NCBI GenBank assembly: GCA_046350695.1
Contig: JAXLZX010000002.1
Span: forward strand, 109,070-133,069
Direction: 5' to 3'
Length of the DNA: 24,000 nucleotides
Source of the DNA: Candidatus Saccharimonadales bacterium
GTDB taxonomy: Bacteria; Patescibacteriota; Saccharimonadia; Saccharimonadales; JACQNP01
In this document: in pieces, positions 66 through 21,471 of the stretch
Layout of the letters: every line of letters begins with the position of its first letter
How positions within the stretch are numbered: the stretch's first letter is position 1
The notes under the pieces: model-generated
The model's database searches: none
The model's input: only the letters and a program-made list of their open reading frames with translations
Told to the model about the DNA's origin: nothing
Position numbers and translations under genes: made by a program

Positions 66-1517
66 CTACAAACTTTTCATTGTTTCAATATATTGTGCGC
101 CAAAAGCATCTTCAGCAGTGTTATCATCCATCGCAAACATCGTTATTCTAAGCATGGCGTATCCGCCATCTCCTTGTCTACTAAATATTGCACCTGGTTG
201 AACTGTAACACCATTAAACACTAATGCTTCACGATTAATATATGTTTGACTACCAATGGTCTTAGTGTGAAATTCCAAACCATGAATATTTACAGTCTTT
301 CTCTTCCCCTCTTGAGCTGCAGCCAAATAATACCCTTCTGCATCCTTGCATGAACCGCTCTTCATACTAACCCTTTCTCTGGTCACTGGAATAGCAGAAA
401 ATATATCCTCAGTCTGGGCTTTCTCTCTTACGTTCAACTGCTTCACTAAATCAAGTACTAACATTGCAGACCTTGACTCGTTAGGTAAGTCACTCGCTGT
501 AATCTTGGCTATTGAGTCTCGTATTTTAACCTCATCACCATTAAACAAAGAAGTTATAGACCTCGAATCATCGTTGACAATTTTAGCAAGCTCTCGGGTC
601 AATTCTGCATATCCATGTCCATATCTTTTTTCGTTAATCTCGGCAAATATCTCCTTTACATCCTCACTCATAACTAGTCCTGCCATACTAAATGCGCTCA
701 GTAAATCATTGCCAGTACTGGAATCAATAAATGGATTAGCCAGAATATTACCCGCATATGTTTTCTCTAAAAATTCTTTATCCGCATCTATCTCTATTCC
801 AATATTCCAATCAACTGAATCTAGATTTTGCTCATCTGCCTGCACAACACTCTGCAGCATAAAGCTCACGCCTTTCATATCTACACTAGGCATAATTATT
901 CGAAGTCTACCATCTTCTAAATATTCTGACCTAGCTCCAGATTCACCTTTGCTGCATGTAATCGCCTTTCTTAATAACTCAGTCGTTTGACTCTGGGCGT
1001 CATTATTTTTACCTGGATTACCTGACAACATAAATGTTAACAGAAAATCGGCATCTGCAATTTCACCAGTTTTTTCATAGAACCTGAACGAGCTACTACT
1101 AAATATAGTTTGATTGTCAAAGCTTGCTTGACTCGTAACTTCGTCGACAGCCTTCTGATATCTTTGGTAGTCCTGATCTGTTTCTAATGCCGTCTCTAAC
1201 TCAGAGACTGTAACATGATTAAGCTTACTAACTCCTACACTAGTGACAGTATTACTCCCGGACTCATCAATACTGACTAAGCCAGCATTAATTATAGGAT
1301 CTATCCTCAGTCTATCTCCTGAATACCCTCTATTAATACTTACTTCAAAACCACTAGATAAATCCCTAACAAAATTAGAACCATCAAAATCTCTAGGTAC
1401 GACATTAGATAAATAACCTGCAACCCTGCGTTCTGCATGCTGCATTCTTAGCTCATATAGTTCCGTATACAGACTCTCTAACTGCTGTTGCTCAGGTACT
1501 ATACAGACTTCAGACAT
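66..1517 (-). CDS. Hypothetical protein of about 483 aa; acidic, soluble, no recognisable domain. Downstream partner of the Fic/Doc-like gene.
   Basis: Long uninterrupted minus-strand ORF (track 66..1550, with GTG at 1550). I prefer the ATG at 1517 (MSEVCIV...), which lies 7 nt after the TAG stop (1525-1527) of the upstream gene. The GTG at 1550 would overlap that gene by 26 nt and has no Shine-Dalgarno (SD) sequence at usable spacing. No TM segment, signal peptide, Walker A or obvious nuclease motif seen by eye. Confidence 0.6.
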   Translation of the reverse strand: MSEVCIVPEQQQLESLYTELYELRMQHAERRVAGYLSNVVPRDFDGSNFVRDLSSGFEVSINRGYSGDRLRIDPIINAGLVSIDESGSNTVTSVGVSKLNHVTVSELETALETDQDYQRYQKAVDEVTSQASFDNQTIFSSSSFRFYEKTGEIADADFLLTFMLSGNPGKNNDAQSQTTELLRKAITCSKGESGARSEYLEDGRLRIIMPSVDMKGVSFMLQSVVQADEQNLDSVDWNIGIEIDADKEFLEKTYAGNILANPFIDSSTGNDLLSAFSMAGLVMSEDVKEIFAEINEKRYGHGYAELTRELAKIVNDDSRSITSLFNGDEVKIRDSIAKITASDLPNESRSAMLVLDLVKQLNVREKAQTEDIFSAIPVTRERVSMKSGSCKDAEGYYLAAAQEGKRKTVNIHGLEFHTKTIGSQTYINREALVFNGVTVQPGAIFSRQGDGGYAMLRITMFAMDDNTAEDAFGAQYIETMKSL

Positions 1518-1524
1518 AGCAATT

Positions 1525-2649
1525 CTAGTACTCCCTTGAAAAATCCGCACGATACAACTGGTTGTCCTTTATTGGATTACCATCATCACCATAAATAGTC
1601 CACAGTGGTTTATCGCCTGCTGTTGATTCGATCACTCTATTAAAATATTCAGCTTTTTCTTCTGCGTCTCTTGTAATTATTTCTAGGGCTTTATCATCAT
1701 CGACAGTCTCAAGCAAGGCATGCAGCGAACTCTTAATACCGTCTGAGTCTCCCCTGCTTGCTGCATCTAAGATACCTGGGGCATCTCCATACCTACAAGC
1801 ATACATAGGGCCAAATCCATTTTGCTGCATAATCTTAATAAATTTCTGCTTTAAATCAGAATCCGATATACCAGAAATTTTGTCAACCATTTCCGCTCGA
1901 TTAACTACATCGTCACCCCAGTATGCAATCAGCGTACCCATAGCTTTACGATTTTGTTTTTCTGTCTTTTCCTGGACGAACGAACTTACATAAGACCTAT
2001 CTGCATAATACATAGAGTTTCGCGCTTCTGGAGTAAAGCCTAAGACCCGTCTCATTGCAGCTTGATCATAGTGATTTGAAGTGTCGATGCCATACTTTAT
2101 CAGTTGATATACCGCCCTGGCAGTTCGCTTATTTCCGTCCTTGAAGGCCTGCATACCCACAATAATATTAGCCATGAGCTGACCCGCTTTACCAAGTTGA
2201 CCTTCAGCTGCAAATTTCTTAGTTACCTCTAATGCATTCGAAAATACTTCACCCCTTTTCTCTGGGCTTAGACCAACAAAACCTGCTACATATTCATCAC
2301 CCTGACCATGACCTAATACAACCTCTTCTTCGCTAACGTTTGAATCTTCTACGCCAAATAGTTTCATATTAACAAATGCAATGGCTACTGCTGCCTCGGC
2401 TTCATTTGCACTAGTAATCATTTCGCTACGTTTCTCTGGATCGCTCAGTATTTGATTGGGGTCGAGTTCTTTAAGTGCAGTCATAAGATTTGCGACGTCG
2501 CCAAACTCACCTCGTTCACCCGTATATTTCGTACCTTCTATTAGCTCTTGTTGACTCGGGACAGAATCAATAACATACCTAATATCAGGGGTCTGCTGTG
2601 GTAGTTTTGGTATAAAACCTGGCGCTTCGCCAATTAGTGTTTCGGACAT
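1525..2649 (-). CDS. Fic/Doc (Fido) fold domain protein with a degenerate core motif, 374 aa.
   Basis: The central segment LGKAGQLMANIIVGMQAFKDGNKRTARAVYQLIKYG matches the Fic core HxFx(D/E)GNGRxxR and especially the Doc variant HxFx(D/N)(A/G)NKR. The catalytic His position is Gln (CAG). ATG at 2649, TAG stop at 1525. The N- and C-terminal flanks are unassignable by eye. Confidence 0.6.
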   Translation of the reverse strand: MSETLIGEAPGFIPKLPQQTPDIRYVIDSVPSQQELIEGTKYTGERGEFGDVANLMTALKELDPNQILSDPEKRSEMITSANEAEAAVAIAFVNMKLFGVEDSNVSEEEVVLGHGQGDEYVAGFVGLSPEKRGEVFSNALEVTKKFAAEGQLGKAGQLMANIIVGMQAFKDGNKRTARAVYQLIKYGIDTSNHYDQAAMRRVLGFTPEARNSMYYADRSYVSSFVQEKTEKQNRKAMGTLIAYWGDDVVNRAEMVDKISGISDSDLKQKFIKIMQQNGFGPMYACRYGDAPGILDAASRGDSDGIKSSLHALLETVDDDKALEIITRDAEEKAEYFNRVIESTAGDKPLWTIYGDDGNPIKDNQLYRADFSREY

Positions 2650-2677
2650 TTTTTGTTTTTATTTATTAACAGATTAC

Positions 2678-2706
2678 ATTATAGCACAAAATTATGATTT
2701 TGTCTA
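2678..2706 (-). promoter_or_regulatory. Sigma70-type promoter for the Fic/Doc-like operon: TAGACA, 17-nt spacer, TGCTATAAT.
   Basis: On the minus strand the -35 TAGACA is at 2706..2701, the spacer is 17 nt, and the extended -10 TGC-TATAAT has its hexamer at 2683..2678. The predicted transcription start site (TSS) is near 2671, giving an A-rich leader of about 22 nt to the ATG at 2649. Confidence 0.55.
2686..2703. promoter_or_regulatory. Perfect 7-4-7 palindrome ACAAAAT-TATG-ATTTTGT inside the promoter spacer; candidate operator.
   Basis: Left arm 2686-2692 and right arm 2697-2703 are exact reverse complements. The element fills the -35/-10 spacer and overlaps 3 nt of the -35 hexamer. Confidence 0.35.
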
Positions 2707-2734
2707 TTGTTTGTAGTTGTGTTTGTAAAACTTT

Positions 2735-3121
2735 TTATCCTAGGCGAAGTTTGATTCTATCGATCACATCAGCAATAACAACCTGTGATTTTACAAGATA
2801 GTCATCTACGCCAAGCTTTTCGGCCTTTTCTTTGTCAGCTTCTTGGCTCAGTGCTGTCAACATTATGATTTTGACATTTGCTGTCTCTGGGGTATTTCGT
2901 AGAATATCAAGAACATCAAAGCCACTTACCTTAGGCATCATCACATCGAGCAAAATCAAATCCGGCTTATATTCCAACGTAGAGGCTAGGGCATCTTCAC
3001 CATTCGGCACCCTATGAACATTAAAACCCTCAGTTTTTAATCTTGTAATATAAACACTTGCTAAAGCATCATCATCCTCTACGAGTAATATTTTCTTTTG
3101 TTTTGTAGTAGTTTCTTCCAT
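2735..3121 (-). CDS. Single-domain response regulator (CheY-like receiver only), 128 aa.
   Basis: KILLVEDDD acidic pocket, LDVMMP phospho-acceptor Asp context, MLTAL, and the conserved Lys in YLVKS. There is no output domain. ATG at 3121, TAA stop. Confidence 0.85.
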   Translation of the reverse strand: MEETTTKQKKILLVEDDDALASVYITRLKTEGFNVHRVPNGEDALASTLEYKPDLILLDVMMPKVSGFDVLDILRNTPETANVKIIMLTALSQEADKEKAEKLGVDDYLVKSQVVIADVIDRIKLRLG

Positions 3122-9110: not shown

Positions 9111-10202
9111 CTAGCCATTTTCACTCAAATTCATTACTAAACTTGCCTCAATAAAACCATCAATTTCGCCGTTCAAAACTTTGTCCGGGTCACTAGATTC
9201 ATGTCTAGTTCTGAGGTCTTTTACCTGTTTGTAGGGATGTAGAACGTAAGATCTAATCTGGTTGCCCCACTCCGCTGACTGATTTGGTCCTTTCAATTCT
9301 GAAACCTTTTCGGCATGTTGCTCTATCTGAAGTTGAGCCAGACGCGAACGTAAAATTGTCATAGCGGTTTCTTTATTCTGTATTTGGCTTCGCTCATTTT
9401 GAATGGCAACAACTATTCCGGTTGGCAAGTGAGTAACCCTCACCGCAGAGTCTGTAGTGTTCACCGATTGACCACCATGTCCGCCACTGCGGTAGACATC
9501 AATTTTTAACTCTTTGTCATCTATCTCCACCTCATCTGGCGTATCAACCTTAGGCATGACCTCGACTTTTGCAAAACTAGTTTGCCGTAAATTGTCCGCG
9601 TTAAACGGACTTAACCTTACCAGCCTATGCACACCATGCTCATTCTTTAGCTTACCGAATATAAACTGACCTGATATTTCCAGTGATACGCTTTTAACTC
9701 CAGCTTCATCCCCAGATGACTCATCAATAACCGCAACATCATACTTATGTGACTCAGCCCAGCGTACATACATCCTCAATAACATCTGCGCCCAATCTTG
9801 AGCATCCGTTCCGCCAGCACCAGCATAAATTCCAAGGATTACATCGTGATCATCATAAGGTCCAGAGTATTGTAGCTCTCGTTTTAACTCACTAAACACA
9901 GTTTCTACTGATGTTAGCTGGCTTTGTAATTCCGTCTTGATTGAATCATCACCCAATTCTGCTAAATCCTTCATTTCATTTAGGTCGGTCTGAAGTTTTT
10001 GCCAAGGATTAATTCTCTGCTCTAGTTTGTTAATTTTTTTCATAACCTCTTGGGCGGCAAGGTTGTCTTGCCAAAACTCAGGCACCGATGATTCAGCCCT
10101 TAATTCATCAAGCTCCCTACACCTACCGTCTATATCGAGACTGGCAACGACTTTGCTTACTTCAATAAGCAATTTATCTATTGAAGAAATTAACTCCTGC
10201 AT
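9111..10202 (-). CDS. prfB: Peptide chain release factor 2, encoded in a single frame, 363 aa.
   Basis: SPF tripeptide (RLSPFN) and GGQ (SGGHGGQSVN). The full-length ORF has no internal frameshift site. Confidence 0.95.
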   Translation of the reverse strand: MQELISSIDKLLIEVSKVVASLDIDGRCRELDELRAESSVPEFWQDNLAAQEVMKKINKLEQRINPWQKLQTDLNEMKDLAELGDDSIKTELQSQLTSVETVFSELKRELQYSGPYDDHDVILGIYAGAGGTDAQDWAQMLLRMYVRWAESHKYDVAVIDESSGDEAGVKSVSLEISGQFIFGKLKNEHGVHRLVRLSPFNADNLRQTSFAKVEVMPKVDTPDEVEIDDKELKIDVYRSGGHGGQSVNTTDSAVRVTHLPTGIVVAIQNERSQIQNKETAMTILRSRLAQLQIEQHAEKVSELKGPNQSAEWGNQIRSYVLHPYKQVKDLRTRHESSDPDKVLNGEIDGFIEASLVMNLSENG

Positions 10203-10210
10203 TAGTCATA

Positions 10211-10219
10211 ATTATACCA
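10211..10219 (-). promoter_or_regulatory. Extended -10 promoter TGGTATAAT, 8 nt upstream of the prfB ATG (leaderless-type).
   Basis: The minus strand reads TGG-TATAAT-TATGACTA-ATG. No SD. Confidence 0.45.
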
Positions 10220-10261
10220 GCAACTCTCATCTTGAGCTCTAGCCGAGTTTTATTGTAAAAA

Positions 10262-11551
10262 CTATTTACTCCAGAGGACTGACAAATCACTATGTAGAGG
10301 ATCTATGAAATCTTGACCACAACTTCCCAAAACCCCCAAACCCCAAATATTATCCGCAAACATTGCTCGTGCAATATCAACAATCTTATCCTTATTTACA
10401 GACTCAATTCGTTCAGGAATCTTAAAATAATCATCAATGAACTCATCAAAGAAATATCGATACGCATATCTATTTGCCGTACCGCCAACAGTTTGTCCGC
10501 TTCGTTGAAACTTACCAAGACTGTACTGCTTGACTGCTACAATCTCGTCTTCAGTAATATTTCCGTTAAACACATCTTCAAGCTCTTTAATAATAACTTT
10601 AAATAAGGGTTTAGTATTCTTGGGCATAACTTGTGCACCAAACCACCAGTTACTACTTATCTTTGTCTGGCCGACACCTGAGCTCAAATGATATACAAGT
10701 CCCTTCTCTCTGGCAGTCCCCAAAATTTTTGAGTGCAAGGTCTCCGTTAACATCGAGTTAACTAAATTTAATGAATCTGTTTCCATTTCCGACATACGAC
10801 GTTTTGTAAAGGTGTCTATATAGAAGTAAATGTTTTCGACAGTTTCGTTTTCTAAATATAGAGGCTGTTTGAGTAGTTTAGGGGTTTCATTTGGCAGATC
10901 CAGCCTGGATTCACCGACTGGGATTTCCATATCCTCAAAAATGTTTTTTATAATCTTGATGCGCTCCCTAGTAAGTTTTCCAGCAATTACAAATCTCATA
11001 TTTTTTGCGTTATGTGTCGTTTTATAATGCTCAACTATGTCGCCTAATTCAACGTTATTAATACGTGTTAATCTTTCGGCATCAGTTAGAACTTGATAGC
11101 CAAACTTCTCTCGTAGATTTAGACTTAGTTCTCTAAAATGATTATTGGATCTGGCACTCAGCTCCTCGATAACATTACCGAACTCAGCCTTGAATTCCTC
11201 TTCTAAGAATAATGGTTTTGAAATTGAAATGGAAAGTAATTGTGCTATTCTATCCCATTCAAAATCCGCACACTCGGCTTCATAAACTATGTCATAGCTA
11301 CTAGTGCTAGCATTAGAATACGCACCATTCTTTTCGAATTCAGCCTGGAAAAGCCGCGCTTTTGGAATAAGCTCATTGGCACCCAGAAGCACATGCTCCA
11401 TTAGGTGCGGAGTCTCCCACTTGTCCTTTTCAACTAGGTATTCACCTGCCCTAAAGTTAATCAAAAAACTCATGACAGATGCATCTGGGACATTAATTAG
11501 CAGACCCCTGGCGCCATTGCCTAATTTCACTTCACTTACAGTGTGCTTCAT
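10262..11551 (-). CDS. M16 (insulinase/pitrilysin) family zinc peptidase, 429 aa.
   Basis: Inverted zinc motif HxxEH in TPHLMEHVLLG near the N-terminus. Typical length of about 430 aa. Confidence 0.85.
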   Translation of the reverse strand: MKHTVSEVKLGNGARGLLINVPDASVMSFLINFRAGEYLVEKDKWETPHLMEHVLLGANELIPKARLFQAEFEKNGAYSNASTSSYDIVYEAECADFEWDRIAQLLSISISKPLFLEEEFKAEFGNVIEELSARSNNHFRELSLNLREKFGYQVLTDAERLTRINNVELGDIVEHYKTTHNAKNMRFVIAGKLTRERIKIIKNIFEDMEIPVGESRLDLPNETPKLLKQPLYLENETVENIYFYIDTFTKRRMSEMETDSLNLVNSMLTETLHSKILGTAREKGLVYHLSSGVGQTKISSNWWFGAQVMPKNTKPLFKVIIKELEDVFNGNITEDEIVAVKQYSLGKFQRSGQTVGGTANRYAYRYFFDEFIDDYFKIPERIESVNKDKIVDIARAMFADNIWGLGVLGSCGQDFIDPLHSDLSVLWSK

Positions 11552-11560
11552 TGACGATTG

Positions 11561-14155
11561 CTACCTACGCTTGTTCCCTGCTTTTTTACGCTTACGCTCG
11601 GCTTTTCTGGCCTTCTTCTTTTTAGTCTTCTGCTCTTTTTGGGCTATGTTTTCTTCTCTTGCTGGAATGAAGTCAGTTTCGTGGAACTCTTCAGCCTCTA
11701 TGATCTTGTCTGCATTATCTACTGATTTCCTAGCTGCTTTTGTCAGATCAGTCTCAATAGTTTCATCAATACCGACCGGTTCAGCACTATAAATAGCCCT
11801 TACTACTTCCTGTCGTAGCGTTTCTTGCATCTTCTCAAAGAGTTGTTGAGACTGACGGCGGTACTCTACCAAAGGATCCCGCTGCCCAACTGATATCCAG
11901 TGAATACCCTCTCGCATATGATCCATATTCTCAAGGTGTTGCATCCACAAATTATCTAGAACCTGTAAGTATATATCTGTTTCAACCTTACGCATAACCT
12001 CCGAGCCAAAGACAGCTTCCCGCGTATCGTAAAGTTCTAATGCTTCAGTCTTTAGTACCTTTCCAAACTTAGAGGCTTCAGTGTCAAACAATCTATCTAA
12101 CGCCTCTTCGTCAAAAGGAAACACATCCTTAACAACTGATTCAAATTTGTCACTCAAAAGATGCTCAGAGCTTGCAATTTGTTCGGCTTGTTCTTCAATA
12201 ATCTTTTTTATTCGTTTACTTATGTCACCCTTGTGTAACATTTCTTTTCGCATAGCATAAGTAGCCTTGCGATGGCGGTTCATTACGTCATCGTATTGAA
12301 CGACATTTTTTCTAGTATCAAAGTTAAAACCTTCCACTTTTTTCTGGGCTGACTCTAATGATTTTGAGATTACACGATTTTCTATTGGAGTTTCATCGTC
12401 AACGCCCAATCTATCCATAACAGCATTTATTCTTTCGCCACCAAAAACACGCATAAGATCGTCCTCAGTACTAACAAAGAACTGAGAAATCCCCGGATCG
12501 CCCTGTCTACCAGACCTTCCACGCAACTGGTTATCTATTCGACGAGATTCATGTCTCTCTGACCCTAACACGAAAAGTCCACCAGCTTTTCTCGCTTCAT
12601 CATCAAGCATAATATCGGTACCTCTACCGGCAATGTTAGTAGCTAGCGTAACAGCACCTTTTTGTCCGGCTTTCTCAATTATCAACGCTTCACGCTCGTT
12701 ATTCTTGGCGTTCAAAACTTGATGAGGTACTTTTGCCTTAGTTAATAAGTTACTAAGAACTTCGTTCTTTTCAATCGACACAGTGCCGAGCAAAACTGGC
12801 TGTCCTTTTTGGTGTAGCTTTTTAACTTCGCGGACAATGGCCTTAAACTTGCCTTTTTCTGTTCTATAAATCCTATCTGGCATATCCTTCCTGGCAACTG
12901 GCTTATTGGGTGGAATTTGAATAACGTCCAGTTTATAAATCTGATGAAATTCTTCACTTTCAGTTTCAGCCGTACCAGTCATACCAGAAAGTTTTTCATA
13001 CAATCGAAAATAATTCTGGAAACTGATTGTTGCGAGTGTCATAGATTCTTCCTGAACCTCAACACCTTCTTTGGCTTCTATTGCTTGATGCAGACCTTCG
13101 TTATAGCGTCTACCCTTTAATAGACGACCGGTAAATTCATCAACAATAACTACTTCGCCATCAGAAGTTACTACATAGTCTTTATCTCGTTTAAACAGCG
13201 CCTCAGCTTTTAACGCTTGCTCGAGATGATAAATAATTCTGATATTTTCGGTTCCATATAAACTATCAATTCCTAATATTTTTTGAACATGTTCTATTCC
13301 ATCATCCGTTAATACGACCGACTTCTTCTTCTCGTCTACTTCGTAATCTTTATCCTTTTTCAGCTGACGCGTGACCTTAGAGAACTGTGAGTAAGCATTA
13401 CCGCTTGTTACAGACGGTGCAGAAATAATTAGAGGTGTTCGAGCCTCGTCAATTAGGATAGAGTCAACTTCATCGACTATGGCGTAGTGCAGTTCACGCT
13501 GACGTAATTGATCTACTTCTCTAACCATATTGTCACGAAGATAGTCAAAGCCAAATTCATTATTCGTACCATAAGTAATATCTGCCGCGTATGCCTCTTG
13601 GCGAGTACAAGGCTTTAAATGGCTCATTCTTTTATCGTAGTGATCCTTATTGACATAATCTTTGTCGTATATATAAGACTCGTCTGCAACAATTACAGCC
13701 GTCGTTAGACCCAAAAAACCATAAACCTGACCCATCCAGCCAGCATGAAGCTGGGCCAAGTAATCATTAACCGTGACAACATGAGCACCCTTGCCCGTAA
13801 GAGCATTTAAGTAAACAGGCAATGTAGCAACGAGCGTCTTTCCTTCGCCAGTTTTCATCTCAGCAACATTACCCTCATGCAAGGCCATGCCACCGATTAA
13901 CTGAACATCATAGTGTTTTTGCTTAATGGTTCGAAAAGCTGCTTCTTTTACGACAGCAAAAGCATCTGGCAGAATTTTATCTAAAGATTCTTTTTCTAAT
14001 CTTTTTTTGAGCTGTTTAGTCTGATCTGTAAGCTGCTTATCAGACAGTTTCTTATACTTATCCTCTAATGCATTAATATCTTTAACTCGTTTCTTGTAAC
14101 GCTTCAAAGTCCGGTTTTGCGGGTCGCCCAAAACCCGCTTCAATACTTTCTTCAC
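11561..14155 (-). CDS. secA: Preprotein translocase ATPase SecA, 864 aa.
   Basis: MKTGEGKT Walker A, DEVDSILIDEA, TNIAGRGTDI and LRGRSGRQGDPG motifs. GTG at 14155 is preceded by GAAGGGGA. The C-terminus is polybasic and has no Cys-rich zinc finger. Confidence 0.97.
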   Translation of the reverse strand: MKKVLKRVLGDPQNRTLKRYKKRVKDINALEDKYKKLSDKQLTDQTKQLKKRLEKESLDKILPDAFAVVKEAAFRTIKQKHYDVQLIGGMALHEGNVAEMKTGEGKTLVATLPVYLNALTGKGAHVVTVNDYLAQLHAGWMGQVYGFLGLTTAVIVADESYIYDKDYVNKDHYDKRMSHLKPCTRQEAYAADITYGTNNEFGFDYLRDNMVREVDQLRQRELHYAIVDEVDSILIDEARTPLIISAPSVTSGNAYSQFSKVTRQLKKDKDYEVDEKKKSVVLTDDGIEHVQKILGIDSLYGTENIRIIYHLEQALKAEALFKRDKDYVVTSDGEVVIVDEFTGRLLKGRRYNEGLHQAIEAKEGVEVQEESMTLATISFQNYFRLYEKLSGMTGTAETESEEFHQIYKLDVIQIPPNKPVARKDMPDRIYRTEKGKFKAIVREVKKLHQKGQPVLLGTVSIEKNEVLSNLLTKAKVPHQVLNAKNNEREALIIEKAGQKGAVTLATNIAGRGTDIMLDDEARKAGGLFVLGSERHESRRIDNQLRGRSGRQGDPGISQFFVSTEDDLMRVFGGERINAVMDRLGVDDETPIENRVISKSLESAQKKVEGFNFDTRKNVVQYDDVMNRHRKATYAMRKEMLHKGDISKRIKKIIEEQAEQIASSEHLLSDKFESVVKDVFPFDEEALDRLFDTEASKFGKVLKTEALELYDTREAVFGSEVMRKVETDIYLQVLDNLWMQHLENMDHMREGIHWISVGQRDPLVEYRRQSQQLFEKMQETLRQEVVRAIYSAEPVGIDETIETDLTKAARKSVDNADKIIEAEEFHETDFIPAREENIAQKEQKTKKKKARKAERKRKKAGNKRR

Positions 14156-20465: not shown

Positions 20466-21419
20466 TCAGCGAGAATACAATCCAATGATCAGAACGACAG
20501 AAAACAGTACACGCAAGATCAAACTTATAAATACGTAGTTCTCCTGAACGGCTTCGTAGTTTGCAAACTTGCCTACACGCTTAAGTGCAAGTAACTGGTT
20601 TTTACCGATTATTGATGCACTAACAACCAGCACTACATAAAGTGCATAGACAAACCAAGTAGCTCTTATATCTCCGAAAACTATAGTGAAGATTGCGTAC
20701 GATATTATTACTAGCCACGGCAATATGCCAGTGATTAATCCTAGGTAATATTCTCTTATAGCTGCCTTTCCAGTTTCTACGGTACGTTTTTCAGCCATCC
20801 ATCCAGCGATCATTGTAACAATCATAAAACCACCAATAAGTTTCAGTGTTGCAATATCTAAAACCCCACTAAGCATGGCAACAGTTTCGACCATAATCGC
20901 AAAAGTAATAGCCATTTCAATCCATCGCTTTGGCATAACCTTAGCTTTTATTGAATCATCATGATCTTTTTTAAATCTAGTTAAGTAAAGTACTGGCAGA
21001 ACTATTGAAACAACCGCAAGCACAATTACTATCCATTTAATGTGCACATCCACAATCCCTTGAGTTGCTGGTGCAAACTGAGTGCCGTTAACACTGTTTA
21101 GTTCGTCCTTACCCCAATACCCAACACTAAGCTGAAAACTAAGGTTGCTCATCAAAAAGTATGCAGCAACAGCTATCAGTCCGTAAACAACTATACTTAT
21201 CGCATAAAGTTTCTGTAGCCTAGTTTTCGGTTCTTTAGATTTCTTACTATCTTTAGTCGTAATAGTCTTTTTTGAAACAACGACTTTTGTAGCAGTTGAT
21301 TTACTAGTAGACTTGGCCGACTTAACTGATGTGTTTTTAGAAGTTGGTTTTTTCGCTGCCGGTTTTTTGGCTTTTGTGGTTTTAGTCTTTGCCTTCGATG
21401 ATTTAGTTGTTGTAGCCAT
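20466..21419 (-). CDS. Heliorhodopsin-family 7-TM protein lacking the TM7 Schiff-base lysine, with a polybasic N-terminal extension (about 317 aa from the ATG at 21419).
   Basis: Blocks align with my recollection of heliorhodopsin 48C12: FKK...KRWIEMA (FKR...FRWVEYS), IAGWMAEKRT (LFGWLQEKYT), ITGILPWLVIISY (IAGIVPWIGLLIY) and GKFANY...NYVFISLILRVLF (GKWSNY...AYIVLSLVAKSAL). The start is set at the ATG at 21419 because TGGTATAGT lies 6 nt upstream. The track ORF begins at GTG 21437. Confidence 0.65.
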   Translation of the reverse strand: MATTTKSSKAKTKTTKAKKPAAKKPTSKNTSVKSAKSTSKSTATKVVVSKKTITTKDSKKSKEPKTRLQKLYAISIVVYGLIAVAAYFLMSNLSFQLSVGYWGKDELNSVNGTQFAPATQGIVDVHIKWIVIVLAVVSIVLPVLYLTRFKKDHDDSIKAKVMPKRWIEMAITFAIMVETVAMLSGVLDIATLKLIGGFMIVTMIAGWMAEKRTVETGKAAIREYYLGLITGILPWLVIISYAIFTIVFGDIRATWFVYALYVVLVVSASIIGKNQLLALKRVGKFANYEAVQENYVFISLILRVLFSVVLIIGLYSR

Positions 21420-21425
21420 GAGAGA

Positions 21426-21434
21426 ACTATACCA
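21426..21434 (-). promoter_or_regulatory. Extended -10 promoter TGGTATAGT, 6 nt upstream of the ATG at 21419 (leaderless-type).
   Basis: The minus strand reads TGG-TATAGT-TCTCTC-ATG. Confidence 0.4.
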
Positions 21435-21471
21435 CACTTATTACCACGAAAATGCAGTTTTATTGTCTACG

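What the first reader, a model, noticed from the sequence alone, without database searches (positions are those of the whole stretch)
2116..2151. Fic/Doc core motif with the catalytic His replaced by Gln (QAFKDGNKRTAR)
The 374-aa protein carries an otherwise well-preserved Fido active-site loop preceded by the usual hydrophobic helix (LMANIIVGM-QAFKDGNKRTAR-AVYQLIKYG). The canonical Fic motif is HxFx(D/E)GNGRxxR, and the Doc kinase subfamily uses HxFx(D/N)(A/G)NKR. This sequence has the Doc-type NKR but reads CAG (Gln) where the essential His should be, and Ala in place of Pro. Three explanations fit: a catalytically dead Fido scaffold, an enzyme with altered chemistry, or a very recent single-nucleotide inactivation, since CAG is one step from CAC/CAT. 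The Fido domain sits between about 150 aa and about 170 aa of unassignable sequence, unlike small Doc toxins. No Phd-like antitoxin gene lies upstream.
Basis: partly seen in the sequence, partly recalled or inferred. Interest (0 to 1): 0.7.

Follow-up and report, generated by a model that had tools for sequence, protein, structure and literature searches.

The report
Gln/Lys-variant Fic protein in Saccharibacteria
The gene is a real but very divergent Fic/Doc-type protein from a Saccharibacteria genome, and its glutamine in place of the catalytic histidine is an old, selected variant (always paired with lysine) already catalogued by sequence analysis, though its chemistry has never been tested.

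Summary
Window 2151..2116 (minus strand) encodes QAFKDGNKRTAR in a 374-aa ORF (1525..2649).

- **Family call:** it holds only at profile level. Pfam Fic scores 17.9 bits for this protein, below the cut-off of 24. However, 13 of 17 family members hit Fic, the family profile hits FICD homologues at E=2e-5, and hhalign gives 93-96%. The top fold matches are Fic proteins.
- **Recent mutation:** refuted. A 90%-identical orthologue keeps the motif with three synonymous changes. All 12 members of a deep clade have Gln+Lys. All 8 members of the sister clade have canonical His+Gly (bipartition 199/200).
- **Location:** both clades sit in one hypervariable slot (pyrG, response regulator, slot, rpmA) of Saccharibacteria genomes.
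- **Not unique:** 87 viral-contig loci encode QxFxDGNKRT in proteins that look like real Fic/Doc members; all 7 sampled pass the Pfam cut-off. Only 1 locus has Gln+GNGR and only 3 have Asn/Asp/Tyr+GNKR. Khater & Mohanty (2015) already described a Gln-type "D2" Doc clade.
- **Dead or active:** unresolved. Motif conservation, and antitoxin genes next to some small Gln-type Docs, favour a functional ligand-binding site that is probably catalytic.

Verdict: a new member of a known kind, of moderate interest.

The parts
1525..2649 (-). 374-aa Fic-like ORF (stop codon included) carrying the Gln/Lys motif variant
   Evidence: ORF list and translation. A 90% orthologue, P0001, exists. An exhaustive HMMER search found 18 relatives. 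dN/dS against the orthologue is 0.23.
2116..2151 (-). Active-site loop QAFKDGNKRTAR (residues 167-178). Gln167 sits at the catalytic-His position and Lys174 at the second-Gly position. Asp171, Gly172, Asn173, Arg175 and Arg178 are retained.
   Evidence: Gln aligns to the catalytic His of FIC-1/FICD. N173, R175 and R178 are invariant and D171 and G172 nearly invariant across the family.
2050..2499 (-). Fido core, about residues 51-200 (helices, flap and motif helix pair)
   Evidence: hhalign of the family alignment against four Fic/Doc alignments gave 93-96% probability, with aligned ranges 51-194, 120-189, 133-194 and 149-201. The AF2 model has pLDDT 83.8. The top Foldseek hits are Fic proteins.
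2263..2319 (-). Predicted beta-hairpin flap (residues about 111-129, strands 111-114 and 121-125) ending at the invariant Pro129
   Evidence: Secondary structure of the model. 'VAGFVGLSP' aligns with the flap 'VGITGTNYxP' of Fic proteins and with 'FTPVSPE' of FIC-1. P129 is invariant.
1528..2037 (-). Family-specific C-terminal helical domain (about residues 205-374) with the conserved 'LQQxGFGP' element (Q275, G280)
   Evidence: High pLDDT in the model. Q275 is nearly invariant and G280 invariant. No Pfam, NCBIfam, PHROGs or PADLOC hit.
2524..2556 (-). N-terminal 'SQQELIEGTKY' (residues 32-42), a possible degenerate remnant of the Fic inhibitory-helix motif (S/T)xxxE(G/N)
   Evidence: It lines up with 'SSQIEGNTY' of class-II-like Fic proteins only in the zero-confidence extension of the hhalign alignment. 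The model has low pLDDT here. The Glu is kept only in the window protein, P0001 and P0013. This is a lead, not a finding.
2678..2706 (-). Sigma-70-like promoter, TAGACA-17 nt-(TG)TATAAT, matching 11 of 12 positions and ending 29 nt upstream of the ATG
   Evidence: It is a consensus match only.
66..1517 (-). Downstream co-transcribed ORF of unknown function. It is 483 aa from the ATG at 1517, 7 nt after the Fic-like stop codon. An alternative GTG start at 1550 gives 494 aa and overlaps the Fic-like gene.
   Evidence: It is conserved only next to the 90% orthologue, at 86% amino-acid identity and dN/dS 0.19. No hit in Pfam, NCBIfam, PADLOC, PHROGs or PDB sequences.
2735..3121 (-). Upstream single-domain response regulator, the conserved left border of the variable slot
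   Evidence: Pfam Response_reg, 85.9 bits. The synteny recurs in loci L001, L292, L294 and L297.

Best explanation
**Shown**
- The ORF is a genuine but highly divergent Fido (Fic/Doc-superfamily) protein.
- It belongs to a small family so far found only in Candidatus Saccharibacteria.
- The family sits in a hypervariable slot between pyrG, a response regulator and rpmA.
- The gene has a promoter-like site of its own and is followed 7 nt later by an ORFan.
- The active-site loop is the Gln/Lys variant QxFxDGNKRxxR. In this family it replaced the canonical HxFxDGNGRxxR once, on the branch that separates two well-supported clades. It has been kept under purifying selection since.
- The same Gln+Lys pairing recurs in many unrelated Fic and Doc proteins.

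**Inferred mechanism**
- The flap, the Asp, the Gly-Asn-Lys-Arg anion nest and the final Arg are conserved. The protein therefore most likely still docks a target strand and binds a nucleotide or other phosphate-bearing ligand with a metal ion.
- The Lys, as in Doc, probably reorients the nucleotide relative to AMPylating Fic enzymes.
- The Gln cannot act as a good general base. It would instead position the attacking group.
- My best guess is an active, Doc-like phosphoryl- or nucleotide-group transferase (or hydrolase) with altered chemistry or acceptor, not a dead scaffold.
- It acts either inside the cell or on the host bacterium of this epibiont.
For: **Identity**
- Pfam Fic matches the motif region at 17.9 bits.
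- 13 of 17 family members hit Fic, best E=4.7e-8.
- The family profile hits C. elegans FIC-1 at E=2.2e-5 and FICD at 1.7e-3, with Gln aligned on the catalytic His.
- hhalign gives 93-96% probability over about residues 51-200, including the flap.
- The AF2 model with the family alignment has pLDDT 83.8 and pTM 0.83. Its Foldseek hits are nearly all Fic proteins, with probability up to 0.99.

**Fixation and selection**
- P0001 is 90% identical with the same motif.
- dN/dS is 0.23. The motif carries 3 synonymous and 0 non-synonymous differences.
- 12 of 12 Gln members have Lys and 8 of 8 His members have Gly. The Q|H bipartition has 199/200 bootstrap support with the motif columns excluded.

**Synteny and taxonomy**
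-.

**Gln/Lys as a selected state across the superfamily**
- 87 viral loci carry QxFxDGNKRT, all in-frame in Fic-like proteins.
- Only 1 locus has Q+GNGRT and only 3 have N/D/Y+GNKRT.
- 7 of 7 sampled proteins pass the Pfam Fic cut-off and 2 pass the NCBIfam Doc cut-off.

**Hint of activity**
- 23 of 30 small Gln-type Docs keep a small upstream ORF, against 74 of 104 for the His type.
- Two of these upstream ORFs are bona fide MazE/AbrB-family antitoxins.

**Role of Lys in Doc**
- PMC4177925.
Against: - No biochemical evidence exists for any Gln-type Fido protein in the literature I could search.
- None of my three PDB sequence probes returned a solved Gln-type structure.
- His is the general base in every characterised Fic and Doc enzyme, so loss of catalysis remains plausible.
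- The window protein itself fails Pfam's gathering score.
- Foldseek E-values are weak, about 0.1.
- I could not inspect model coordinates, so the active-site geometry is untested.
- dN/dS of 0.23 is clearly more relaxed than in the neighbouring housekeeping genes, which range from 0.03 to 0.12.
- Antitoxin linkage was shown for small Doc-like proteins, not for this family.
- The viral locus counts are not dereplicated.
Confidence: 0.55

Rival explanations
1. Pseudoenzyme. The Gln/Lys Fido domain is catalytically dead. It works as a nucleotide- or phosphoprotein-binding module, for example a regulator, sensor, or decoy or adaptor for the variable neighbouring protein.
For: - The universally essential catalytic His is missing.
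- dN/dS is relaxed compared with the neighbours.
- No antitoxin or inhibitory partner is conserved with this family.
- The ligand-binding residues are conserved, and binding without catalysis would equally explain that.
- Khater & Mohanty also considered inactivity.
Against: - Gln is used almost exclusively rather than other one-step replacements of His: 87 loci against 3.
- Gln is strictly coupled to Lys: 87 loci against 1.
- A merely dead site would tolerate many residues.
- Some small Gln-type Docs retain cognate MazE/AbrB antitoxin genes, which implies toxicity.
- The flap for target docking is retained.
Confidence: 0.3
2. Recent strain-specific point mutation (CAC or CAT to CAG) or sequencing error in an otherwise ordinary Doc or Fic gene.
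For: CAG is one step from CAC or CAT.
Against: - Gln is present in independent assemblies of a 90% orthologue from three samples.
- It is present in 10 further homologues down to about 23% identity.
- It covaries with Gly to Lys, a change that needs at least two nucleotide substitutions in the Gly codon.
- The motif carries only synonymous differences between the window and L001.
Confidence: 0.01
3. Classical Doc-type toxin of a toxin-antitoxin pair, with a neighbouring gene (for example the downstream 483-aa ORF) acting as the antitoxin or immunity protein.
For: - It has the Doc-like NKR loop.
- It is tightly coupled to the downstream ORF, 7 nt apart.
- It lies in a variable accessory slot.
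- Other Gln-type Docs are in TA-like operons.
Against: - No small Phd, YefM or AbrB gene lies upstream.
- The protein is 374 aa with a Fic-type flap and a final Arg, unlike the roughly 125-aa Doc.
- There is no NCBIfam DOC_P1 hit.
- The partner ORFs differ completely between family members: 483, 114, 328, 445 and 164 aa, with no detectable homology between them.
- There is no PADLOC hit.
Confidence: 0.08
4. Chance resemblance. The protein is not a Fido domain and the motif is fortuitous.
For: - The single sequence is below the Pfam threshold.
- There are no NCBIfam or PDB single-sequence hits.
- Foldseek E-values are about 0.1.
Against: - Family-level hits are significant.
- The sister clade carries a perfect canonical HxFxDGNGRxxR.
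- The flap and helix pattern align with Fic proteins beyond the motif.
- The motif occurs in none of 100 shuffles.
Confidence: 0.03

Closest known systems
Doc clade 'D2' of Khater & Mohanty 2015 (Sci Rep 5:10804, PMC4454073), consensus Qx[F|Y]x[D|E][G|V]NKR
   Same: Exactly the same active-site variant: Gln for the catalytic His together with the Doc-type Asn-Lys-Arg. It is bacterial. It was proposed to be kept by selection, and its function is unknown.
   Different: - D2 proteins were described as usually single-domain, small Doc-like proteins.
- This protein is 374 aa.
- It has a Fic-type beta-hairpin flap, the final Arg of the Fic motif (R178) and a roughly 170-aa C-terminal domain.
- Its nearest relatives are His/Gly Fic proteins, not Docs.
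- The Gln/Lys state therefore arose here independently of the small Docs.
P1 Doc toxin (HxFx(D/N)(A/G)NKR), a kinase that phosphorylates EF-Tu
   Same: Lys replaces the second Gly of the Fic motif. In Doc this forces ATP to bind in an inverted orientation, so that phosphate rather than AMP is transferred (PMC4177925). The helix-loop-helix around the motif aligns with 96% hhalign probability over residues 133-194.
   Different: - Doc keeps the catalytic His.
- Doc is about 126 aa.
- The Doc consensus quoted in the Pearl ends at NKR and P1 Doc has Leu where the final Arg would be; that Doc also lacks the flap hairpin is from my own knowledge of the family.
- Doc is paired with the upstream Phd antitoxin.
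- None of this applies here.
AMPylating Fic enzymes of the FICD / FIC-1 / SoFic type (HxFx(D/E)GNGRxxR)
   Same: These are the best sequence-profile and fold matches. They share the flap followed by Pro, the Asp, Gly-Asn, Arg and final Arg of the motif, and 'GY(D/P)' after the motif helix. The sister clade of this family has the full canonical motif.
   Different: His is replaced by Gln and the second Gly by Lys. There is no clear (S/T)xxxE(G/N) inhibitory motif. There is no TPR or wHTH domain. The C-terminal domain is family-specific.
Gln-type Fic/Doc proteins on viral contigs
   Same: They carry the same QxFxDGNKRT loop. Some classes (about 250 aa and about 350 aa) also keep the final Arg and the flap, as the window protein does.
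   Different: There is no homology outside the Fido core: at most 31 bits to the family HMM. Their genomic contexts are different (phage or prophage; TA-like for the small ones).

Membership tests
Fido superfamily / Pfam Fic (PF02661) | Score at or above Pfam's gathering threshold (24 bits) for the protein itself | tested here: not met
   The score is 17.9 bits, E=0.0056, over residues 151-183 only.
Fido superfamily / Pfam Fic (PF02661) | Significant homology at family-profile level | tested here: met
   13 of 17 family members hit Fic, best E=4.7e-8. The family profile hits FIC-1 (5jj6) at E=2.2e-5. hhalign gives 93-96% against four Fic/Doc alignments.
Fido superfamily / Pfam Fic (PF02661) | All-alpha Fido fold with the motif loop between two helices, plus a beta-hairpin flap | tested here: inconclusive
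Canonical AMPylating Fic | Motif HxFx(D/E)GNGRxxR with catalytic His and the second Gly | tested here: not met
   The motif is QAFKDGNKRTAR. His is replaced by Gln and Gly by Lys. F, D, G, N, R and the final R are present.
Canonical AMPylating Fic (classes I-III) | Inhibitory helix motif (S/T)xxxE(G/N) | tested here: inconclusive
   'QELIEG' at residues 34-39 is positionally suggestive, but only in the zero-confidence part of the hhalign alignment. It is not conserved in the family.
Doc toxins (TIGR01550 DOC_P1) | Motif HxFx(D/N)(A/G)NKR | tested here: not met
   NKR is present but His is replaced by Gln.
Doc toxins (TIGR01550 DOC_P1) | Match to the NCBIfam Doc model and small single-domain size (about 125 aa) | tested here: not met
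   There is no NCBIfam hit even at E up to 10. The protein is 374 aa with extra domains.
Doc toxins (TIGR01550 DOC_P1) | Upstream Phd-, YefM- or AbrB-type antitoxin gene | tested here: not met
   The upstream gene is a response regulator. The 85-bp spacer holds no ORF.
Doc toxins (TIGR01550 DOC_P1) | Kinase activity on EF-Tu | not testable with these tools
   This needs biochemistry.
Khater-Mohanty 'D2' Gln-type Doc clade | Motif Qx[F|Y]x[D|E][G|V]NKR | tested here: met
   QAFKDGNKR fits the consensus.
Khater-Mohanty 'D2' Gln-type Doc clade | Single-domain Doc-like architecture and phylogenetic placement within the Doc subfamily | tested here: not met
   The protein is multi-part and 374 aa. 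Its closest relatives are His/Gly Fic-type proteins in the same genomic slot. Similarity to small Gln-type Docs is limited to residues 149-201. The D2 sequences themselves were not available for a joint tree.

The most novel reading that the evidence does not exclude
The strictly coupled Gln+Lys pair defines a distinct catalytic class of Fido enzymes. Its chemistry would differ from both AMPylation and Doc-type phosphorylation. For example, Gln might orient water or a non-hydroxyl nucleophile, giving a hydrolase or a transfer to a new kind of acceptor. This Saccharibacteria family has His/Gly and Gln/Lys sister clades in the same genomic slot. It would then be a natural switch pair for working out that chemistry, possibly in an epibiont-host effector role.
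Probability: 0.15. Interest if true: 0.75.

Novelty: new member of a known kind. Interest (0 to 1): 0.4.

Why it matters
Fic/Doc enzymes are a major class of post-translational modifiers, and the catalytic His is treated as indispensable. A Gln variant was catalogued in 2015 but I found no published test of it.

This locus adds three things:
- A deep, clean His/Gly versus Gln/Lys split inside one orthologous, syntenic family. That makes it an ideal matched pair for experiments.
- Evidence that the variant also occurs in long Fic-architecture proteins, not only in small Docs.
- Superfamily-scale counts showing that Gln is specifically selected and obligatorily coupled to Lys.

If Gln/Lys Fido proteins prove active, the accepted catalytic scheme for the family needs an extension. 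If they are binders, they form a large class of bacterial and phage pseudoenzymes. Taken alone, though, the window gene is one more uncharacterised accessory protein of a Saccharibacteria genome.

Tried and rejected
- **Single-sequence searches.**
  - NCBIfam and PDB sequence searches found nothing useful.
  - The word-indexed homologue search found only P0001.
  - Run with the family profile, it found only P0001 and P0014.
  - The exhaustive HMMER search was needed to reach the family.
- **Structure without an alignment.** It was unusable, pLDDT 40.6.
- **Collection scans with the family alignment.**
  - The first alignment was too divergent.
  - GTDB and JGI metagenome scans each matched 600 motif stretches but confirmed no relative.
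  - The candidates were probably swamped by unrelated Doc/Fic proteins with the same loop.
- **Partner gene as a conserved module.** Rejected. The 483-aa ORF occurs only next to the 90% orthologue, and the slot ORFs of other family members are unrelated.
- **Defence-system or phage-family assignment.** No PADLOC or PHROGs hits.
- **A solved Gln-type structure.** None was found with three different probes. A designed-repeat hit is spurious.
- **Literature.** Nothing beyond the 2015 in-silico description of a Gln-type motif, and nothing on Fic proteins in Saccharibacteria.
Full report
**1. Observation**

Window 2116-2151, read on the minus strand, is CAG GCC TTC AAG GAC GGA AAT AAG CGA ACT GCC AGG, which translates to QAFKDGNKRTAR. 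It covers residues 167-178 of a 374-aa ORF at 1525..2649. The degenerate pattern for Q-x-F-x-D-G-N-K-R-x-x-R occurs once in the window and in none of 100 shuffles.

**2. Is it a Fido domain?**

Taken alone, the protein does not pass the tests:
- Pfam Fic scores 17.9 bits against a cut-off of 24, and only over residues 151-183.
- NCBIfam gives nothing.
- phmmer against PDB sequences gives nothing relevant.
- A single-sequence AlphaFold model is useless, pLDDT 40.6.

The word-indexed homologue search found only one 90%-identical protein, P0001. The exhaustive HMMER scan of 1.8 billion cluster representatives found 18 relatives. With these:
- 13 of 17 family members hit Pfam Fic, best E=4.7e-8.
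- A profile of the alignment hits C. elegans FIC-1 (5jj6) at E=2.2e-5 and human FICD at 1.7e-3, with Gln aligned on the catalytic His.
- hhalign against four alignments I built from Fic and Doc proteins of viral contigs gives 93-96% probability.
  - The longest confident alignment covers window residues 51-194.
  - It includes the flap: 'VAGFVGLSP' against 'VGITGTNYxP'.
- AlphaFold with the 17-sequence alignment gives pLDDT 83.8 and pTM 0.83.
  - The model is an all-helical body.
  - It has a beta-hairpin at residues 111-125.
  - The motif loop lies between helices 152-166 and 173-185.
- Its Foldseek hits in the PDB are almost exclusively Fic proteins (FICD, IbpA Fic2, BT_2513, SoFic). Their E-values are weak, about 0.1, with probability up to 0.99.

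**3. Is Gln fixed?**

Yes.
- P0001 keeps the motif, and P0001 occurs in three independent assemblies.
- The two genes differ at three synonymous sites inside the motif and at no non-synonymous site there.
- Gene-wide dN/dS is 0.23, with dS 0.20. This is purifying selection, though more relaxed than pyrG (0.07), ctpA (0.03) or the response regulator (0.12).
- In the family alignment, the window protein and P0001-P0011 read Q-x-x-x-(D/N)-(G/A)-N-K-R-T-(A/S)-R.
- P0012, P0013, P0014, P0016 and P0017 read a canonical H-x-x-x-D-G-N-G-R-x-x-R, as do three proteins I found in GTDB genomes (L214, L215, L272).
- So 12 of 12 Gln proteins have Lys and 8 of 8 His proteins have Gly.
- A neighbour-joining tree built without the motif columns separates the two sets with 199/200 bootstrap support.
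- N173, R175, R178 and P129 (the end of the flap) are invariant across both clades. D171 and G172 are nearly invariant.

The 'recent point mutation or sequencing error' reading is refuted.

**4. Genomic setting**

PyrG, two genes upstream of the target, finds its best matches in Candidatus Saccharibacteria/Saccharimonadales MAGs, at up to 85% identity. The rest of the window is a co-directional run of housekeeping genes.

Every family member for which I could fetch context lies in the same place: ctpA, pyrG, response regulator, the slot, then rpmA on the opposite strand, a methyltransferase, an LPG-synthase-like gene and xseAB.
- This holds for the Gln-type window protein, P0001, P0002 and P0004.
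- It also holds for the His-type P0013.

The family therefore looks vertically inherited and positionally orthologous.

The slot itself is hypervariable. In 61 GTDB species genomes the distance from the response regulator to rpmA ranges from 8 bp to 6.8 kb, median 1.45 kb. Only three of the 80 loci carry a Fic-motif protein there.

The accompanying ORFs differ completely between members (483, 114, 328, 445 and 164 aa, with no detectable homology between them). No conserved two-gene module exists.

In the window, a strong sigma-70-like promoter match lies 29 nt upstream of the ATG: TAGACA, 17 nt, (TG)TATAAT, 11 of 12 positions. The 483-aa ORFan starts 7 nt after the stop codon. The two genes are therefore probably one transcription unit. 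No Phd-like gene is present.

**5. How unusual is Gln/Lys?**

Not very.
- A scan of IMG/VR for Q-x-F-x-D-G-N-K-R-T found 87 loci.
  - All matches are in-frame and preceded by the typical hydrophobic helix.
  - The proteins fall into size classes of about 120-140, 220-250 and 350 aa.
- Seven of seven sampled proteins pass Pfam's Fic cut-off, and two pass NCBIfam's Doc-toxin cut-off.
- Control patterns of the same stringency show the pairing is specific.
  - Gln with GNGRT occurs once.
  - Asn, Asp or Tyr (other one-step replacements of His) with GNKRT occur at three loci.
- These counts are not dereplicated.

Khater & Mohanty (2015, PMC4454073) listed Qx[F|Y]x[D|E][G|V]NKR as one of five Fic/Doc motif classes. 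They called it clade D2: 45 sequences, mostly single-domain, bacterial. They argued from selection that it may retain function. I found no biochemical or structural follow-up.

**6. Dead or alive?**

This is not settled. The sequence evidence leans towards a functional site:
- Everything in the loop except His and Gly is invariant or nearly so.
- The flap is kept.
- Gln is chosen over other substitutions, 87 loci against 3.
- Gln is obligatorily coupled to Lys. According to the Doc literature, that Lys flips the ATP orientation and turns an AMP-transferase scaffold into a kinase (PMC4177925).
- 23 of 30 small Gln-type Doc-like genes keep a small upstream ORF, against 74 of 104 for the His type. 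Two of these ORFs are bona fide MazE/AbrB antitoxins. This suggests that those Gln-type Docs are still toxic.

My best guess is an active enzyme of altered chemistry in which Gln positions rather than deprotonates the nucleophile; I rate the catalytic reading itself at about 0.35-0.4. A nucleotide- or phospho-ligand-binding pseudoenzyme is the main rival, at about 0.3. The 0.55 given for the best explanation covers the well-supported identity and selection claims together with this weaker mechanistic guess. A classical toxin-antitoxin reading is unlikely for this locus.

One possible lead: 'SQQELIEGTKY' (residues 32-42) resembles the inhibitory-helix motif 'S-x-x-I-E-G-N-x-Y' of class II Fic proteins. 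It lines up with that motif only in the unreliable extension of an hhalign alignment. It is poorly conserved and lies in a low-confidence part of the model.

**7. Verdict**

- The family call is correct at profile level.
- The most mundane explanation, a recent mutation, is excluded.
- The feature that made the finding look striking is a known, widespread motif class of unknown function.
- New here are a small, Saccharibacteria-restricted, Fic-architecture family in which the His/Gly to Gln/Lys switch happened once between two syntenic sister clades, and the superfamily-scale counts for Gln specificity and Gln-Lys coupling.
- I rate it a new member of a known kind, with interest 0.4.

Noticed in passing
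window 20466-21437 (-): A 323-aa ORF matches Pfam Heliorhodopsin (102.6 bits, E=2.8e-29). This is a heliorhodopsin gene in what looks like a Saccharibacteria genome, next to msrA and tRNA/rRNA methyltransferase genes.
   Followed up: no
window 66-3121, and loci L212-L291 at about 9600-12000: The interval between the response-regulator gene after pyrG and rpmA is a hypervariable slot in Saccharibacteria. Across 61 species genomes it ranges from 8 bp to 6.8 kb, median 1.45 kb. It is filled with unrelated ORFans.
   Followed up: partly
window 66-1517 (-): A 483-aa ORFan lies 7 nt downstream of the Fic-like gene. It has no hit in Pfam, NCBIfam, PADLOC, PHROGs or PDB sequences. Its only relative among the Saccharibacteria loci searched lies next to the 90% orthologue, at 86% amino-acid identity and dN/dS 0.19. 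It is a real gene under selection with unknown function.
   Followed up: partly
viral loci L004-L090, L211, L299-L301: Across viral contigs, Gln at the catalytic-His position is almost only found with the Doc-type Lys: 87 loci, against 1 with GNGR. Other one-step His replacements (Asn, Asp, Tyr) with GNKR are rare, at 3 loci. Counts are not dereplicated.
   Followed up: yes
L017 and L032 (viral contigs): Small Gln-type Doc-like genes lie directly downstream of MazE/AbrB-family antitoxin genes (Pfam 32.0 and 40.2 bits against a cut-off of 24.7). Several other upstream ORFs end in a shared '...R(R/K)L(A/S)K' tail. This suggests Gln-type Docs are still neutralised toxins.
   Followed up: partly
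window 2560-2580 (-), residues 24-30: A conserved 'R-Y-(V/I)-I-D-x-(V/I)-P' stretch sits in the otherwise disordered N-terminus of the longer family members (window protein, P0001, P0002, P0003, P0005, P0007). The N-terminal 'M-S/T-E' is nearly invariant. This could be a docking or export signal.
   Followed up: no
L230 and L282 (GTDB records): Two contigs carry pyrG that is 72% and 67% identical to the window's Saccharibacteria-type gene. They are titled 'Burkholderiaceae bacterium' and 'Candidatus Binatia bacterium'. They are probably mis-binned Saccharibacteria contigs.
   Followed up: no
window 1-24000: All credible genes lie on the minus strand, and GC skew is uniformly negative across the window (cumulative -4.4). 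This fits one replichore with strong gene-strand bias. The only long plus-strand ORFs overlap minus-strand genes and look spurious.
   Followed up: no
window residues 63-64, 112, 126, 135, 181, 203, 301 of the ORF at 1525-2649: Besides Gln167 and Lys174, eight positions are conserved in the Gln/Lys clade but differ in the His/Gly clade. They include Gly126 in the flap, and Tyr181 three residues after the final Arg. They may be co-adaptations to the altered active site.
   Followed up: no
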